DNA of 64,000 nucleotides from a virus (UHGV-0326994), one strand, 5' to 3'; counted from the first letter of the stretch, positions 1,226 through 60,141 are shown. The notes: generated by a model not told the origin, from the sequence alone. Program-made: numbers and translations.

Positions 1226-1260
1226 AAGGCTCCCGTAAAAAGGAGCCTTAAATTTTATTT
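1226..1260. terminator. bidirectional rho-independent terminator
   Basis: ggctcc-cgtaaaaa-ggagcc with A-run before and T-run after; between convergent td and the 1255-1626 gene. Confidence 0.7.
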
Positions 1261-1626
1261 TTCAGTATTCTTTGTGTTCTTTTCAGTAATAGCTTGCAAG
1301 GCTGATACTGATTGAGCCAGATTGTTCACGCTGTCAGAGAATTTATCAAGAGTTTTAGTAAGTTTTGCGTTCTCACCCTTAACATTCTCTAACTGAACTT
1401 TCTGGTTCTCCATCCCTAACTGAAGCAATCTCATGTCAGACTGTAAATCACGAATAGCTGAGTAATTAGATTTACTGTAATTATCTAGCTGCTGTAATTT
1501 TGTTGTGATAGACACCTCTTGCTTACCATCCGAAACTTGCATGGTGGTATACATTCCAATAACACTAAAAATACCAACTACAATTGCACCAATATTATTT
1601 TTAAAAGCTTCCTCTAGCCACCTCAT
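1255..1626 (-). CDS. membrane-anchored coiled-coil protein (function unknown)
   Basis: 123 aa; N-terminal hydrophobic segment IGAIVVGIFSVIGMY, remainder Q/L/K-rich heptad-like. Confidence 0.4.
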   Translation of the reverse strand: MRWLEEAFKNNIGAIVVGIFSVIGMYTTMQVSDGKQEVSITTKLQQLDNYSKSNYSAIRDLQSDMRLLQLGMENQKVQLENVKGENAKLTKTLDKFSDSVNNLAQSVSALQAITEKNTKNTEK

Positions 1627-1821
1627 TTATTTCTCCCCCTTAAAAGCTTTTTCTAAGTTATCTACGAACTCATCATCAATAGGTGTGTCTGTTTTACTCG
1701 CAAGGTATCTTGCAAGCCTAAAGAACACTTTCTCAATCATGTATTCACTTAGAAGGGATAAAATGAGTTTCCAGAAGAAGCTACCTAGATTTTTTAGAAG
1801 AATTGCTAGGATTGTAGGCAT
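1627..1821 (-). CDS. small hydrophobic protein (holin-like? unproven)
   Basis: 64 aa ORF abutting the previous gene; hydrophobic N-terminus ILAILLKNLGSFFWKLILSLL. Confidence 0.35.
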   Translation of the reverse strand: MPTILAILLKNLGSFFWKLILSLLSEYMIEKVFFRLARYLASKTDTPIDDEFVDNLEKAFKGEK

Positions 1822-1900: not shown

Positions 1901-4468
1901 TTAAGCAGTTCTTACCCAAGCCATTAACTTGTAGAACTGGTTAGTAACACTAAATGCTGAACCAGAACCTGTGCTACCAGTGTTACCACTAACTGTGTGG
2001 CTGTGAGCACCAATACCTACAGAGTGGGAATGGTCGCCAGCACCACTTGTAGTACCAGACCAAGTGTGTGTATGGTTACCAGTTGTGTTAGTGTTAGGGA
2101 ATTTATTGTCTCTTCTGTCAAGCCAGTCAAGTGTTCTAGGGAGACTGTTACCAACGGTTGTATAACCATACAAAGCATCACCACCATTAACTAATAACAG
2201 GCCTAAGTGGTGAGCATGGTTACCAGCAGCACTTGTTGTACCACTTACAGAGTGAGTATGCCCACCCGTACTGTTAGTCCCCTTCGTACCATAATCAAAA
2301 GATGAAGTGGTAGCAGAGAAACTATGAGTGTGTGCTGGTAAGTTACCAACAGACAACGTCACAGAGTCTGAACCACCAGTTGTAGCAACATCTGAACCAT
2401 TTGCTGCTGCAATTCTGATAGTTCTCCCAACACCATTGTTCAGGTACGTCCAAGTTAATCCAGGAAGTGCTGTATTAGGGTCAACATTACTGTTAAACCA
2501 CGTTACAATACCTACTGGATAGATTTTATTAAGGTCTGTAGAGTCACTTACTGCCTGTGCAATCTTCTGGTCAGTCTCAGCTTTAGTGTATGCACCGATA
2601 TCTGAAGGGGTTGGTTTCAAGAGACTAGTATAATAATAAGCAATTGTCCCAGCAACATAGCCAGATGGAGCACTGTCAGATGTCTCTGGGGTTTCAAACA
2701 GTTGTACTGTTGCATTATCTGATGACTGAACCCTAGCTGTCGTAGCATTTTGGTAGTTACCAGTTTTGCAATAGATGTCATAATTATCACCAGATGTATT
2801 AACATAGCCAACTTCAAGTACAGTACCATTCGGTGAGTTTTTCCAAGCTACAACATTTAAACCTTTTGGTTTGTTATTCCCTGTTCTAAGAACAATTTCC
2901 GTTTTACAAGCTTGGTCAGGTGTATTATAGTTGAACCCAGACCCACCAAACCACTCGATTACTGCTGTTGATGTTGCTTGTGGCATAGTGACAGTAGCAA
3001 TCTTAGACCATTTAGCCGTACCACTGATATTAAACCCAGTGCTCCTTACTCTTAGATACCTATTATCTGCTGATGACTTGTTATAGTATCGCCCATCAAT
3101 GTTAGTCCAATCAGAAGGTTGAACTTGACCAGTGATAGCAAAATTCTTGTTAGCCACAATTGCTGATGATTCAAGGGCAATTTGAGTGCCAGAGGAGCTG
3201 TTGTTCAAAGTAACCACGTTAGAGTTATTTCCCCCCACACCAATCCACCATCTAGAGGTGTGTGTGGTATCAACACCACGGATATACAAAGGCTGATTTT
3301 GTGTTAAATTCTTCACAATCAAACCTTCATTGTTAGCAACAATAGTTTGTGTATTTGTGAAAGTATTAGCCACATTAATTTTAGCAAGATTACTCAAAGT
3401 GGCTGCTGGAATGTATCTAGAGTCAATGTTAGACCAATCAGAAGGTTGAACTTGACCACCAATTTGGACTGTTCTGCTCATGGTAATGGTGTTACCTAGT
3501 GAGATTTGTGTTTTTGCTAAATAGTTATAGATGTTTACAATATTCTCATCACCGTCATTACCAATGTACCACTTATTAGTTCCATCTGACTTTCTTGCTT
3601 GGATGTACAAAGCCGCAGTTGTATCTACATTTTGAATAGTAATAGCATTAGCATTCTTCTTAATAACAAAGTTAGTGAAAGTATTAGAGCCACTAAATGT
3701 GTTATTACCAGCTAACTGTGCAAATCTCTGATTAGCTACTGTCTGGGTAAAATATCTAGCATCTAAGTTAGCAAAACTTGAAGGTTGAACTTGACCAGCA
3801 ATTTGAAGAGTCCTGTTGACTGTCACCAAATTCTCTAAAATAGCAATTGAAACGTCGGACTTTACATTCTTTAATACAAGATTATGTGTACCTCTATTAT
3901 CATTACCTAGATACCATCTGTTAGTACCATCTGCATCTTGACCACGAAGATAGAGTGGAGCACCTTGAGTGATATTTTTAATAATGAGTGCTTCATTGTC
4001 AGAGAGAATAGCTTGAGTACCCCTAAAGGTATTATTCACAGCTAGTCTTGCATACCTTGCATCATTCTCTTCATTAGTTCTCATGCCAAGCTCATTAGGA
4101 CTTGGTTTATTCAGAGTATGATAGACAGTTGCTGACCTTGAAGCATCTGCAATAGTCAGTTTAAGACCATTTGCGTTAATTTTAAAAGTCTTTAAAACAT
4201 CACCAATATTAATCTCAGAAGAGCCTGTTGGGTTAAATACTACCTTACCACCATAAAGTAACTTAACAATCCCTAAGTCACCCGTCATAGTGCTACCAGC
4301 AATCTGAACAAATCTTTCAAGTTTAAAAGATGCTAAGAAGTCTTGATAGGTCATTCGACGGTCTTCATCACCCAGCATTTCAGGTCTCTTTTTAACTCTG
4401 ACATGAAGAAGGTCGTCTGAACGGATTGTGTCGATTGAGTTTAATTCACTCAACTTGTAATCTGCCAT
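1901..4468 (-). CDS. long tail fibre protein with His-x-His receptor-binding tip
   Basis: Start moved to the ATG at 4468 ([10 protein letters not shown]..., preceded by GAGGAAA RBS); repeated beta-rich segments; C-terminal [35 protein letters not shown] motifs; C-terminus paralogous to the 4515-5702 product. Confidence 0.75.
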
Positions 4469-4480
4469 TATAAATTTTCC

Positions 4481-4506
4481 TCTAAAAAGGGGCTTTATAG
4501 CCCCTG
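4481..4506 (-). terminator. terminator-like hairpin between the two tail fibre genes
   Basis: aggggct-ttat-agcccct followed on the minus strand by TTTTTAGAGG. Confidence 0.55.
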
Positions 4507-4514
4507 TAAAGAAA

Positions 4515-5702
4515 TTAAGCTGTTCTCTGCCATACATACAGTACGAAGGATGGCTGCTCAATGTTGAAAGCTTGTCCACCACCAACACTATTAGTGTTCC
4601 CGCTATGCGTATGTTCAGAAGAAGAAACTGTTACAGTACCATTATGTGTATGCGAACCAATACCAACTGTGTGGCTGTGAGCACCAATACCTACTGTATG
4701 GTTGTGGTTACCTGTTGTGTTGGTTGTGACACTGAAAGAGTGTGTGTGTGCACCAGCGACTTCACAGACAGCATCTGCTGAGTACCATGATTGGTCATTC
4801 CTTGTAGACCAAACCATTGCAGGTCTTTCCGATAGACCACCACCTGCTTCATATGTCAATCTGTGGTTGTGAGCACCAGCAGTACTTGTTGACCCACTAC
4901 CAACATGGTTGTGGTTACCTGTTGTGTTAGTAGTCTTTGTTCCATAATCAAAAGAGTTGGTAGTCTTAGTTCCATAATCAAAAGCTGAAATTGACACAGT
5001 TGCATTATGAGTGTGAGCGCCACCACTAAGAGATACAGAGTGGGAGTGCTGAGGCATATTATTAACTGACAAAGTAACAGTTGAAGCACCAAATACAGAA
5101 CCTGCTGGTCTTGTGTCAGAGTCATAACCAACCAATGCTCTACCCTTTGAAACTAACTCCCAAGTACCTCCACAAATTAAATATGTAGAAGGGTTTGCAG
5201 AGTTCATAGAAAGATGAATAGTACCTACTGGATAAGAAGCCTGAACAGCCTTGTACAAGTTATTTACTGCTCTTGCTGTAGCGTACTTATTTGCATCTTC
5301 ATTATAAAGGTCAGATGTTGTCCAGTTCTGAACATTACTTAAGCCAACCTGTGCCTTAGTTGTATTGTGTGGGTTACTCTTATCCTTGATATGTTGTTGG
5401 ACAAGATTATTAACCTCTTCTGAAGACATAATCTGTAGATTTGCTCTTGCCTCAGCTACATTGACAATATCTGATAAGTTATTTGCAGCGACTAACTGGA
5501 GAGCATTAATAACATTATCTAAACCAATTTGTGTTTTAGTAACACCATGAGGGTTATTTCTTAGGCTTGAGTGTGGAGCAAGTAATTGCTCAAGAGTACA
5601 CCTTTTATCCTCAATACCCTGCTTAAGATGGAAGATATCGCTAAGGTCAATTGGTAAGGCTGCTTGAGGCAAGGCACTAATTTGAATTTCACCTACTGCC
5701 AT
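4515..5702 (-). CDS. tail fibre protein (tail-collar-like domain plus His-x-His tip)
   Basis: 395 aa; [15 protein letters not shown]...[14 protein letters not shown] collar-like motif; [32 protein letters not shown]; internal duplication FDYGTKTTN x2. Confidence 0.75.
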
Positions 5703-5704
5703 TA

Positions 5705-13699
<7,995 letters not shown>

Positions 13700-42504: not shown

Positions 42505-42558
42505 GTAAAAAAGCCCCTGTGAGGGGCTGTATAAAGGTATCTGGGGCTAAATAGCCCC
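42505..42558 (-). terminator. tandem GC hairpins, terminator at the end of the small-gene island
   Basis: agcccct-gtg-aggggct with TTTTTT on the minus strand, plus ggggct-aaat-agcccc. Confidence 0.65.
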
Positions 42559-55000: not shown

Positions 55001-55020
55001 AAGGGGCTTCAAAGCCCCTT
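55001..55020 (-). terminator. GC hairpin between rIIA and rIIB (weak terminator or attenuator)
   Basis: aaggggct-tcaa-agcccctt; no clear U-run. Confidence 0.35.
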
Positions 55021-60116: not shown

Positions 60117-60141
60117 CTCAAAATGGGGCTATGAAGCCCCT
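60117..60141 (-). terminator. hairpin between prs and nadV
   Basis: ggggct-atga-agcccc followed on the minus strand by ATTTTGAGAG. Confidence 0.5.

What the first reader, a model, noticed from the sequence alone, without database searches (positions are those of the whole stretch)
1901..5702. Two paralogous tail fibres with His-x-His tips and an internal duplication
Both fibre proteins end in repeated H-x-H motifs and share C-terminal sequence; H-x-H arrays are known metal-binding sites in the T4 gp37 needle tip. The 395 aa protein has an exact duplication [19 protein letters not shown]. The short fibre gene ends with a terminator hairpin placed 13 nt before the start of the long fibre gene, suggesting regulated read-through. 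Two fibres with related tips fit dual receptor specificity or a recent host-range module exchange.
Basis: partly seen in the sequence, partly recalled or inferred. Interest (0 to 1): 0.5.

Follow-up and report, generated by a model that had tools for sequence, protein, structure and literature searches.

The report
FelixO1-type phage short and long tail fibres
These are the two well-known receptor-binding tail fibres of a FelixO1-like phage, both ending in a T4 gp37-type histidine-rich needle tip, so the finding is real but ordinary and already described for close relatives.

Summary
Window 5702-4515 (-) encodes a 395-aa short fibre (STF). Window 4468-1901 (-) encodes an 855-aa long fibre (LTF). 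The 895-aa ORF starting at GTG 4588 is an ORF-listing artefact.

The window is a Felixounavirus. Both fibres match the T4 gp37 tip (PDB 2XGF, E 3e-27 and 6e-22). They carry 9 and 6 H-x-H motifs and align with each other (35% identity over 282 aa, E 2e-26).

All of this is published for orthologues: FelixO1 gp76/gp77 with terminator t76, VpaE1 gp74/75, Sf14 gp52/53 and the Bas63 gp26/gp27 cryo-EM structure.

- The receptor-contacting head lies between the ascending and descending H-x-H runs, not at the C-terminus. The two heads in this phage are unrelated.
- The FDYGTKTTN pair is an old repeat with 0-4 copies in relatives, also present in T4 gp37. It is not a fresh duplication.
- The hairpin is conserved in all 45 relatives, but its T-run is weak or absent. 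It belongs to a genome-wide set of GGGGCT-N4-AGCCCC hairpins. Nothing supports regulated read-through.

New but minor:
- Head cassettes swap between the STF and LTF genes in relatives.
- This LTF carries a swapped mid-fibre beta-sandwich cassette.
- The LTF Shine-Dalgarno is predicted to pair with the sequence just after the STF stop codon.

The parts
4515..5702 (-). Short tail fibre (STF) gene, 395 aa. Orthologue of FelixO1 gp76 and Bas63 gp26.
5568..5702 (-). STF N-terminal baseplate-binding region (aa 1-45). It is weakly similar to the LTF N-terminus.
   Evidence: Invariant across 12 relatives. Weak STF/LTF N-terminal similarity, E 0.024. A structurally conserved baseplate-binding domain is described for Bas63 gp26/gp27 (PMC12609058). 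The boundary is approximate.
5058..5255 (-). STF collar domain, N-terminal part (aa 150-215, YPVGT...).
   Evidence: Pfam PF21939 Gp10_C over aa 154-261. Aligns to the T4 gp10 and gp37 collar.
4863..5057 (-). STF ascending needle strand (aa 216-280). It holds 4 H-x-H motifs and the two FDYGTKTTN repeats.
   Evidence: Alignment to 2XGF. H-x-H positions. Domain limits are inferred from that alignment.
4923..4982 (-). Tandem 10-aa repeat [10 protein letters not shown] / [10 protein letters not shown] (aa 241-260).
   Evidence: TRF period 30, 2 copies, 93% match. Sequence read directly. Relatives carry 0-4 copies. Aligns to T4 [18 protein letters not shown].
4749..4862 (-). STF head (receptor-contacting) segment, aa 281-318: [38 protein letters not shown].
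4605..4748 (-). STF descending needle strand (aa 319-366), with 5 H-x-H motifs including the [17 protein letters not shown] repeats.
4518..4604 (-). STF C-terminal strand that returns to the collar (aa 367-395, ...[10 protein letters not shown]).
   Evidence: Conserved in all relatives. Aligns with the LTF C-terminus.
4469..4514 (-). 46-nt STF-LTF intergenic region. It contains the UUUCUUUAC flank, the hairpin, the U-run and the AGAGGA Shine-Dalgarno.
   Evidence: Among 21 distinct type-1 haplotypes, only 9 of 46 sites vary, and 4 of those are the loop.
4488..4505 (-). Conserved GC-rich hairpin AGGGGCU-AUAA-AGCCCCU. The equivalent site is annotated as a Rho-independent terminator in wV8 and as t76 in FelixO1.
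   Evidence: RNA fold MFE -18.6 kcal/mol for the 71-nt context. Present in all 45 relatives, with a conserved stem and a free loop.
4475..4482 (-). LTF Shine-Dalgarno region (UAGAGGAA). It is predicted to pair with UUUCUUUA at 4514-4507, directly after the STF stop codon.
   Evidence: MFE structure. Lowest predicted SD accessibility of 58 gene starts in the window (0.10 against a median of 0.51). The outer helix is 90% paired across 17 distinct relatives. This is a hypothesis only.
1901..4468 (-). Long tail fibre (LTF) gene, 855 aa. Orthologue of FelixO1 gp77 and Bas63 gp27.
   Evidence: phrog_4277 full length, E 0. Pfam gp37_trimer x3, E 3e-57. PDB 2XGF E 6e-22. Relatives annotate the same MADYKL start.
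3050..4306 (-). LTF rod (aa ~55-473). It has three ~110-aa repeats, each ending in GQVQPS (aa 225, 338, 447).
   Evidence: Three Pfam gp37_trimer stretches. Direct DNA repeats D2 and D7 spaced ~330 nt apart. Weak match to the T7 gp17 pyramid domain, 4A0T E 0.004. Compared with the T4 gp34 rod in PMC12609058.
2573..3049 (-). LTF mid-fibre 'knob' cassette (aa ~474-632), long form. It is one of three alternative cassettes in relatives. Predicted as a beta-sandwich.
2342..2551 (-). LTF collar, N-terminal part (aa 640-709, [10 protein letters not shown]...).
   Evidence: Aligns to the STF collar. Pfam Gp10_C E 0.0027, below the curated cutoff.
2210..2341 (-). LTF ascending needle strand (aa 710-753), with 3 H-x-H motifs and one [10 protein letters not shown] unit.
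   Evidence: 84% nt identity to T4 gene 37 over 80 nt.
2075..2209 (-). LTF head segment, aa 754-798: [45 protein letters not shown].
1991..2074 (-). LTF descending needle strand (aa 799-826), with 3 H-x-H motifs. [10 protein letters not shown] is encoded by 33 nt that are 97% identical to the STF copy.
   Evidence: D1; STF nt 1009-1041 against LTF nt 2449-2481. Pfam Phage_fiber repeat at aa 818-830.
1904..1990 (-). LTF C-terminal strand that returns to the collar (aa 827-855, ...[10 protein letters not shown]).
   Evidence: Invariant in Felixounavirus relatives. Aligns with the STF C-terminus.
5705..6007 (-). 100-aa protein immediately upstream. By gene order it corresponds to Bas63 gp25, the LTF platform on the baseplate.
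   Evidence: phrog_4141, E 9.5e-62, no assigned function. Conserved synteny in all relatives. The upstream proteins of 285 aa and 489 aa match the lengths of Bas63 wedge 1 and wedge 2 (PMC12609058). The assignment rests on order only.

Best explanation
The region encodes the two host-recognition fibres of a FelixO1-like (Felixounavirus) myophage.

Both are expected to be homotrimers that dock on the baseplate by a related N-terminal domain. Both end in a T4 gp37-type tip. In that tip the chain leaves a collar, runs up a six-stranded needle, forms a small head that touches the receptor, and runs back down to the collar. The H-x-H motifs on the ascending and descending strands (4+5 in the STF, 3+3 in the LTF) face the trimer axis. 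By homology with T4 gp37, each ring of six histidines binds one metal ion (Fe2+ in T4) and stiffens the needle.

Specificity lies in the head, which sits between the H-x-H runs. The heads of the two fibres in this phage are unrelated, so the virion most likely carries two different receptor specificities, with LPS core or O-antigen glycans as the probable targets. By analogy with T4 and Bas63, the LTF would act first and the STF second.

The conserved needle repeats that flank the head (the FDYGTK..GxHxH region and [10 protein letters not shown]) act as homology anchors. Through them, heads are exchanged between phages and between the STF and LTF genes. A second exchangeable cassette, a mid-fibre beta-sandwich, is what separates this LTF from its nearest relative.

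The two genes are co-transcribed. The intergenic hairpin is a conserved, general-purpose punctuation element, most likely a weak terminator and/or an mRNA stabiliser. The LTF is expressed by constitutive read-through.

Shown here: gene identities, homology, motif counts, mosaicism and hairpin conservation. Inferred: metal binding, trimer geometry, receptor identities, order of action and the function of the hairpin.
For: Taxon and orthology:
- 259 phage records match the region, and 371 records match window 6000-30000, where 226 of them are 95-99% identical (best about 96%, including FelixO1).
- Synteny with FelixO1 ORF72-80 and wV8.

gp37-type tip:
- 2XGF E 3e-27 and 6e-22, with the H-x-H motifs aligned.
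- Pfam Gp10_C, gp37_trimer and Phage_fiber.
- The H-x-H counts far exceed chance.
- The collar/needle/head architecture was seen by cryo-EM for Bas63 gp26/gp27, and both fibres are on the virion (PMC12609058; Sf14 in PMC11821841).

Heads are variable and the flanks conserved.

Cassette exchange:
- The SPJ41 STF head is 96.2% nt identical to the BPS17W1 LTF head over 186 nt.
- FelixO1 STF and LTF tips are 81% identical over 270 nt.
- The NBEco005 LTF tip is 89.2% identical to T4 gene 37 over 288 nt.
- In the window, only the flanks are shared between the STF and LTF (33 nt at 97%, 81 nt at 73%).
- The LTF mid-fibre cassette is swapped relative to LF82P9.

Hairpin:
- It is conserved in 45 of 45 relatives, with a free loop.
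- It is annotated as a terminator in wV8 and FelixO1.
- The 15 nt before the ATG leave no room for a promoter, and the scan found no sigma-70-like site on the minus strand between 4089 and 6449.
- Similar hairpins sit at four other intergenic junctions.
Against: - Metal binding and trimer geometry were not tested here. Density for the Bas63 fibres was too poor for side chains (PMC12609058).
- No receptor has been assigned to either fibre in any Felixounavirus (PMC8594841 says the receptor is elusive).
- Host-range mutations reported in one Felixounavirus LTF map to aa 497 and 534. That is the mid-fibre cassette region rather than the head (PMC6669636), so the head may not be the only determinant.
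- If the hairpin were only a terminator, its conservation in Mooglevirus without any U-tract is unexplained.
- Late promoters of this phage group are unknown, so an internal promoter of a non-sigma-70 type cannot be excluded.
Confidence: 0.85

Rival explanations
1. The extended intergenic structure couples LTF translation to STF translation. The LTF Shine-Dalgarno is locked in a helix with the U-rich tract directly after the STF stop codon, stacked on the GC hairpin. A ribosome terminating on the STF would melt that helix and expose the SD. LTF synthesis would then track, or be capped by, STF synthesis. This can hold alongside weak termination.
For: - The MFE and centroid structures pair UUUCUUUA with UAGAGGAA.
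- The LTF SD is the least accessible of 58 gene starts in the window (0.10 against a median of 0.51). Other genes preceded by terminator hairpins score about 0.42.
- The same pairing is predicted for the sequence-divergent FelixO1 type (accessibility 0.04).
- RNAalifold places the outer helix in the consensus structure. It is 90% paired in 17 distinct sequences, with UA<->AU double changes at two pairs. 0 of 500 shuffles reach the observed values, and the slid controls are lower.
- The 9-nt 5' flank is invariant in 21 haplotypes, while 45-75% of neighbouring third-codon sites vary.
Against: - Per-sequence folding predicts an accessible SD in SPJ41 (0.70), Suspvirus (0.85-0.91) and several Mooglevirus phages (0.43-0.71).
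- A U-rich tract and a purine-rich SD pair easily by chance.
- The double changes amount to one or two events between clades.
- The fold z-score is only -2.6, and -1.4 for FelixO1.
- There are no expression data.
Confidence: 0.3
2. One reading: the hairpin is a terminator whose read-through is regulated so as to control long-fibre expression.
For: - A GC-rich stem followed by UUUUU sits between the genes.
- It is annotated as a Rho-independent terminator in wV8 and listed as t76 in FelixO1.
- The FelixO1 paper states that it is unknown how transcription passes such terminators (PMC3185647).
- LTF occupancy on Bas63 virions is variable, from 0 to 6 fibres (PMC12609058).
Against: - No antiterminator element, alternative structure or regulator site is evident, and there is no Rfam match.
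- The U-tract is short here, so the site fails the consensus scan. It reads UCUUUCU in FelixO1 and is absent in Mooglevirus.
- The same type of hairpin recurs at four other junctions, which argues for a general element rather than a fibre-specific one.
- Genes 76 and 77 fall in the same temporal class in the FelixO1 RT-PCR data.
Confidence: 0.12
3. The tip similarity between the two fibres reflects a recent duplication or gene conversion within this genome, so both fibres have essentially the same specificity.
For: - In FelixO1 itself the STF and LTF heads are of the same type (81% nt over 270 nt).
- A 33-nt stretch is 97% identical between the two genes in the window.
Against: - In this window the head segments do not align.
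- Overall tip identity is 35% at the protein level.
- DNA similarity is confined to the two flanks.
Confidence: 0.05
4. The C-terminal resemblance is only Gly/Thr/His-rich low complexity, without real homology.
For: The needle sequence is compositionally biased (G, S, T, H).
Against: - Composition-adjusted BLASTP gives E 2e-26.
- Both proteins match a solved structure with the motifs in register.
- The collar parts at either end of the tip (YPVG... and ...VWQRTA / ...AWVRTA) also align.
- The curated Pfam domain Gp10_C scores above its cutoff for the STF.
Confidence: 0.02

Closest known systems
Bas63 (JohannRWettstein) STF gp26 and LTF gp27, cryo-EM, Sci Adv 2025 (PMC12609058)
   Same: Same genus, same gene order (wedge 2, wedge 1, LTF platform, STF, LTF). 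Both fibres have a related baseplate-binding N-terminus and a gp37-like tip with collar, needle and head carrying H-x-H motifs. The LTF has a rod of repeated domains.
   Different: Bas63 (warpig-like alleles) has 7 H-x-H motifs in the STF and an LTF of about 783 aa with the short mid-fibre cassette. Here the STF has 9 H-x-H motifs, which is the commoner architecture (29 of 44 relatives). The LTF has a 60-aa longer cassette and a different head.
FelixO1 gp76/gp77 and terminator t76 (Whichard et al. 2010, PMC3185647); wV8 gp82/gp83
   Same: Orthologous genes. Both were noted as gp37-like at the C-terminus. A hairpin is annotated as a Rho-independent terminator between them.
   Different: FelixO1 carries the same head type on both fibres, whereas this phage carries two unrelated heads. 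The FelixO1 hairpin has a different stem variant and a poorer U-tract.
T4 gp37 receptor-binding tip (PDB 2XGF, Bartual et al. 2010)
   Same: Collar-needle-head topology, H-x-H motifs, the DxGTK repeats, and sequence homology at E 1e-22 to 1e-27. Up to 84% nt identity in the needle flanks.
   Different: T4 gp37 is the distal quarter of a four-protein fibre and needs the chaperones gp38 and gp57A. Here each fibre is a single protein with its own baseplate-binding end, and no gp38-like gene lies adjacent (the downstream ORFs encode 64-aa and 123-aa holin-like membrane proteins). Motif counts are 9 and 6 against 7 in T4, and the heads differ.
[quoted passage not shown]
   Same: Same subfamily, with two co-oriented fibre genes and a gp37-like distal region. 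The dual-receptor hypothesis is stated there.
   Different: Sequences are more divergent (STF about 63-69% identical to Mooglevirus relatives). The Mooglevirus intergenic hairpin lacks a U-tract.
Adhesin swapping in T-even phages by recombination at conserved 'His-box' motifs (Tetart et al. 1998; cited from my own knowledge, paper not held in the library)
   Same: A variable receptor-binding segment is flanked by conserved GxHxH-containing motifs that serve as recombination anchors. Exchange crosses phage families.
   Different: In this family the exchange also occurs between two paralogous fibre genes of one locus, STF and LTF. I did not find that stated in the papers I read.

Membership tests
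T4 gp37-type receptor-binding tip (collar-needle-head) | Significant sequence similarity to the solved tip (gp37 residues 785-1026, PDB 2XGF) | tested here: met
   phmmer E 3.3e-27 (STF aa 145-367) and 6e-22 (LTF aa 698-835).
T4 gp37-type receptor-binding tip (collar-needle-head) | H-x-H motifs on both the ascending and the descending strand around a central head segment | tested here: met
   STF 4+5 and LTF 3+3, in register with the T4 motifs.
T4 gp37-type receptor-binding tip (collar-needle-head) | Collar domain split by the needle insertion (N-terminal part before the needle, last strand at the C-terminus) | tested here: met
   Pfam Gp10_C E 1e-18 for the STF. The LTF scores below the cutoff (E 0.0027) but aligns to the STF collar. 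The conserved C-terminal strands are ...VWQRTA and ...AWVRTA.
T4 gp37-type receptor-binding tip (collar-needle-head) | Intertwined homotrimer with metal ions (Fe2+ in T4) held by rings of six histidines | not testable with these tools
   Only monomer prediction is available here. The Bas63 cryo-EM supports the trimeric needle at domain level, without side chains or metal identification (PMC12609058).
T4 gp37-type receptor-binding tip (collar-needle-head) | Dependence on dedicated chaperones (gp38, gp57A) | not tested
   The adjacent ORFs are a 100-aa baseplate protein upstream and 64-aa and 123-aa membrane proteins downstream. None hit a chaperone family. The genome was not searched for a gp57A-like gene.
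Felixounavirus STF/LTF pair (FelixO1 gp76/gp77, Bas63 gp26/gp27) | Orthology and synteny: wedge genes, 100-aa protein, STF, hairpin, LTF, two small membrane proteins, then a convergent td gene | tested here: met
Intrinsic (Rho-independent) terminator | GC-rich stem-loop directly downstream of a gene | tested here: met
   A 7-bp stem with 5 G-C pairs and a 4-nt loop, 10 nt after the STF stop codon.
Intrinsic (Rho-independent) terminator | Run of U residues immediately after the stem | tested here: inconclusive
   UUUUU follows here, but its first U is in the stem, so the consensus scan did not report the site. Most relatives have UUUU, FelixO1 has UCUUUCU, and Mooglevirus has UAGAAAG or UAUAAAG, i.e. 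no tract.
Intrinsic (Rho-independent) terminator | Transcript 3' ends at the U-run in vivo or in vitro | not testable with these tools
   No transcript-end data were found for any Felixounavirus. PMC3185647 reports only per-gene RT-PCR timing.
Translational coupling by SD occlusion | SD of the downstream gene base-paired with sequence that lies within reach of a ribosome terminating on the upstream gene | tested here: inconclusive
   Predicted in this window and in most Felixounavirus relatives (accessibility 0.02-0.24). Not predicted in SPJ41, Suspvirus or some Mooglevirus phages. Weak covariation.

The most novel reading that the evidence does not exclude
Two linked readings remain open.

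(1) The STF-LTF junction may be more than a terminator. It could be a conserved two-tier RNA structure in which the LTF ribosome-binding site is masked by the sequence right after the STF stop codon. Long-fibre synthesis would then be translationally coupled to, or capped by, short-fibre synthesis. This could relate to the sub-stoichiometric LTF occupancy seen on Bas63 virions.

(2) The locus may work as a two-slot cassette system. The same head modules, bounded by the needle repeats, move between the short-fibre and long-fibre genes. A given receptor specificity can then be presented on either a 43-nm or a 63-nm fibre.
Probability: 0.3. Interest if true: 0.35.

Novelty: already known. Interest (0 to 1): 0.15.

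Why it matters
For annotation, these are the host-range determinants of a FelixO1-like phage, a group used in Salmonella and E. coli diagnostics and biocontrol. Knowing that specificity sits in the mid-tip head (STF aa 281-318, LTF aa 754-798), and perhaps also in the LTF mid-fibre cassette (aa 474-632), shows where to engineer or compare host range. The conserved needle flanks mark natural splice points for head swaps, including swaps with T4 gp37. Nothing here changes current understanding. The possible SD-masking structure is a small, testable addition about how the ratio of the two fibres is set.

Tried and rejected
- The 895-aa ORF from GTG 4588 was rejected as the LTF. It overlaps the STF, has no SD, and every relative starts at MADYKL.
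- Low complexity as the cause of the similarity was rejected.
- A recent duplication for FDYGTKTTN was rejected. The copies show synonymous differences, and relatives and T4 carry 0-4 copies.
- The promoter/terminator consensus scan did not call the hairpin. It found no sigma-70-like site on the minus strand between 4089 and 6449.
- Rfam gave no family for the junction.
- A PDB profile search with the LTF cassette found nothing.
- A correlation between needle-strand spans in the STF was not significant with my crude head-finding rule (rho 0.38). Only the count of FDYG repeats against descending H-x-H motifs correlated (rho 0.67, p 0.02), across 11 architectures that are not independent.
- My first conservation test of the intergenic region selected sequences by a motif. 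I checked against the full lists that no near-variants had been excluded.
- The PhageMaP Bas63 preprint gave no fibre-specific essentiality statement in its text.
- The T4 tip paper (PMC2996694) is not held in the library.


Full report
WHAT IS THERE

The window is a FelixO1-like myophage. The fibre region matches 259 phage records, almost all Felixounavirus. Window 6000-30000 matches 371 phage records; in 226 of them the best match is 95-99% identical, and the top hits (FelixO1, P54 and others) are about 96%. Gene order is that of FelixO1 ORF72-80 and wV8 78-87.

The short fibre (STF) is 5702..4515 on the minus strand, 395 aa. The long fibre (LTF) starts at ATG 4468 (MADYKL...), 9 nt after an AGAGGA Shine-Dalgarno, and ends at 1901, giving 855 aa. 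The 895-aa ORF from GTG 4588 is a mechanical artefact that overlaps the STF.

CHECK OF THE OBSERVATION

- H-x-H motifs: 9 in the STF and 6 in the LTF, all in the last ~180 residues. Shuffles give 1.4 and 0.3 on average, and none of 20,000 reach the observed counts.
- Tip similarity: the two proteins align over 282 residues at 35% identity, E 2e-26 with composition adjustment.
- Duplication: [20 protein letters not shown] is present at aa 241-260 (window 4982-4923). The DNA copies differ at two synonymous sites and in the tenth codon.
- Hairpin: AGGGGCT-ATAA-AGCCCCT lies at 4505-4488, 10 nt after the STF stop codon. Its T-run ends 15 nt before the LTF ATG, not 13 nt.

IDENTITY OF THE TIPS

Both proteins hit the crystal structure of the T4 gp37 receptor-binding tip, with the H-x-H motifs in register (2XGF; E 3e-27 and 6e-22). 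Pfam finds the collar domain Gp10_C in the STF. In the LTF it finds three gp37_trimer repeats plus the Phage_fiber repeat.

In T4 the chain rises from a collar through a needle, forms a small head and returns. The di-histidine motifs bind Fe ions along the needle axis. This is summarised in PMC12609058, which shows the same collar/needle/head layout by cryo-EM for the orthologous Bas63 fibres gp26 (STF, 430 A) and gp27 (LTF, 630 A).

Mapping by alignment gives the following layout:

| Part | STF (aa) | LTF (aa) |
|---|---|---|
| Ascending strand | 216-280 (4 H-x-H) | 710-753 (3 H-x-H) |
| Head | 281-318 | 754-798 |
| Descending strand | 319-366 (5 H-x-H) | 799-826 (3 H-x-H) |
| Collar strand | 367-395 | 827-855 |

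The receptor-contacting part therefore lies in the middle of the histidine-rich region, not at the C-terminus. What the two fibres share is scaffold. Their heads do not align.

ALREADY PUBLISHED

- FelixO1 gp76 and gp77 were both described as gp37-like in 2010, and terminator t76 was listed between them (PMC3185647).
- VpaE1 gp74/75 were described the same way in 2015 (PMC4690856).
- Sf14 (2025) reports two fibre types 'which may bind different receptors' (PMC11821841).
- Bas63 (2025) gives the structure and counts the H-x-H motifs.

THE 'DUPLICATION'

I compared 45 Ounavirinae loci: 13 from GenBank and 31 from IMG/VR, plus the window. All Felixounavirus, Mooglevirus and Suspvirus STFs carry 2-4 copies of an xDYGxKxTxx unit. 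Kolesnikvirus carries none. T4 gp37 has [19 protein letters not shown] at the same place.

The repeat is therefore an old building block of the ascending needle strand. Its copy number tends to rise with the number of descending GxHxH units (rho 0.67 over 11 architectures that are not independent). The 4+5 H-x-H architecture seen here is the commonest one (29 of 44 relatives).

MODULE EXCHANGE

Heads fall into discrete types that recombine freely with the rest of the fibre. Heads also move between the two genes:
- The SPJ41 STF head is 96.2% identical at DNA level to the BPS17W1 LTF head (186 nt).
- The reciprocal pair (BPS17W1 STF against SPJ41 LTF) is 87% identical.
- FelixO1 carries one head type on both fibres.
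- NBEco005-type LTFs carry a needle and head 89% identical in DNA to T4 gene 37.

In the window, the STF and LTF share only the flanks: 33 nt at 97% encoding [10 protein letters not shown], and 81 nt at 73% around FDYGTK. This matches the classical picture of His-box-mediated adhesin swapping in T-even phages (from my own knowledge; that paper is not held in the library).

The LTF also has a second exchangeable module between the last GQVQPS repeat and [12 protein letters not shown], in three forms of 183, ~121 and ~124 aa. This window has the long form. Against its nearest relative LF82P9, the LTF is 95-100% identical over aa 1-360, 73-77% over aa 361-450 and 88-100% over aa 631-855, but only 4-44% over aa 451-630. 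No deposited phage has this full-length combination.

THE HAIRPIN

A GC-rich hairpin follows the STF stop codon in all 45 relatives. The stem is conserved and the four loop bases vary freely. Kolesnikvirus has a different, canonical terminator followed by a 60-nt spacer with a promoter-like site.

Within 21 distinct Felixounavirus type-1 haplotypes, only 9 of 46 intergenic positions vary, and 4 of those are the loop. By contrast, 30/40 and 18/40 third-codon positions vary in the flanking 120 nt.

The U-tract is short here, so the site fails the consensus scan. It is poorer in FelixO1 and absent in Mooglevirus. The same GGGGCT-N4-AGCCCC design occurs at four other junctions between co-oriented genes in the window, against 0.03 expected by chance. 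No Rfam family matches.

The LTF must be expressed by read-through. Only 15 nt separate the T-run from the ATG, and the scan found no sigma-70-like site on the minus strand between 4089 and 6449. I found no sign of regulation.

A SIDE OBSERVATION

Folding the junction pairs the LTF Shine-Dalgarno (UAGAGGAA) with UUUCUUUA immediately after the STF stop codon, stacked on the hairpin. This is the least accessible SD of 58 gene starts in the window. The pairing recurs in the divergent FelixO1 type and appears in the RNAalifold consensus. There it is 90% paired, with two pairs showing UA<->AU double changes, and no shuffle reaches the observed values.

Against this, single-sequence folding does not predict sequestration in SPJ41, Suspvirus or some Mooglevirus phages. 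U-rich and purine-rich tracts also pair easily by chance. I rate translational coupling at about 0.3.

VERDICT

The finding is real, correctly located and correctly linked to T4 gp37. It describes the standard, published fibre pair of the genus. The 'regulated read-through' and 'internal duplication' readings are not supported. Interest is low.

Noticed in passing
window 4489-4504, 34419-34432, 42543-42558, 55003-55018, 60125-60140: Five GGGGC-loop-GCCCC hairpins, four of them of the exact form GGGGCT-N4-AGCCCC, against 0.03 expected by chance. Four (4489, 34419, 55003, 60125) lie in short gaps between co-oriented genes; 42543 lies in a small-ORF region where it overlaps listed ORFs. Several have no T-run. 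This looks like a genome-wide family of punctuation hairpins.
   Followed up: partly
window 1226-1249: A strong bidirectional terminator-like hairpin (AAGGCTCC...GGAGCCTT, fold z-score -4.5) lies between the convergent holin-like gene (1255-1626, -) and thymidylate synthase (320-1219, +). It corresponds to FelixO1 t79/t80.
   Followed up: partly
L003 (NBEco005) LTF nt 1980-2267; also L019, L022: In some Felixounavirus LTFs the needle and head are 89% identical in DNA to T4 gene 37 (288 nt). This indicates exchange of a receptor-binding tip between Straboviridae and Ounavirinae.
   Followed up: partly
L006 (SPJ41) STF nt 748-933 vs L004 (BPS17W1) LTF nt 2164-2349: The same head cassette (96.2% nt identity) sits in the short-fibre gene of one phage and in the long-fibre gene of another, with the reciprocal arrangement for a second head type. 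FelixO1 has one head type on both fibres.
   Followed up: yes
   Followed up: partly
window 5340-5375 and 5520-5555 (STF aa 50-61 and 110-121): The motif NPHxxTKxQ(V/I)GL is repeated. The N-terminal third of the STF matches virion proteins of jumbo phages (Goslar, Ralstonia RP12/FLC, Serratia Moabite) and Streptococcus prophages. It appears to be a widely shared helix-turn fibre module.
   Followed up: no
window 1255-1821: Two small membrane proteins (64 aa and 123 aa, the latter annotated as 'holin' in some relatives) follow the LTF on the same strand. There is no gp38-like chaperone or adhesin gene next to the gp37-like fibres.
   Followed up: partly
window 6000-30000 vs GU169904.1: A GenBank record named 'Staphylococcus phage SA1' (147 kb) matches 98% of this FelixO1-like structural region at 95.8% identity. 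The record probably contains a FelixO1-like contaminant or chimera.
   Followed up: no
L010/L011 (Kolesnikvirus) nt 4075-4161: At the same junction, Erwinia and Salmonella Kolesnikvirus phages have a canonical terminator (GGACTC-TTCG-GAGTCC followed by TTTTTATT). A promoter-like TTGCTT-N16-(TG)A-GATAAT follows, ahead of a different, H-x-H-free 502-aa fibre gene.
   Followed up: no
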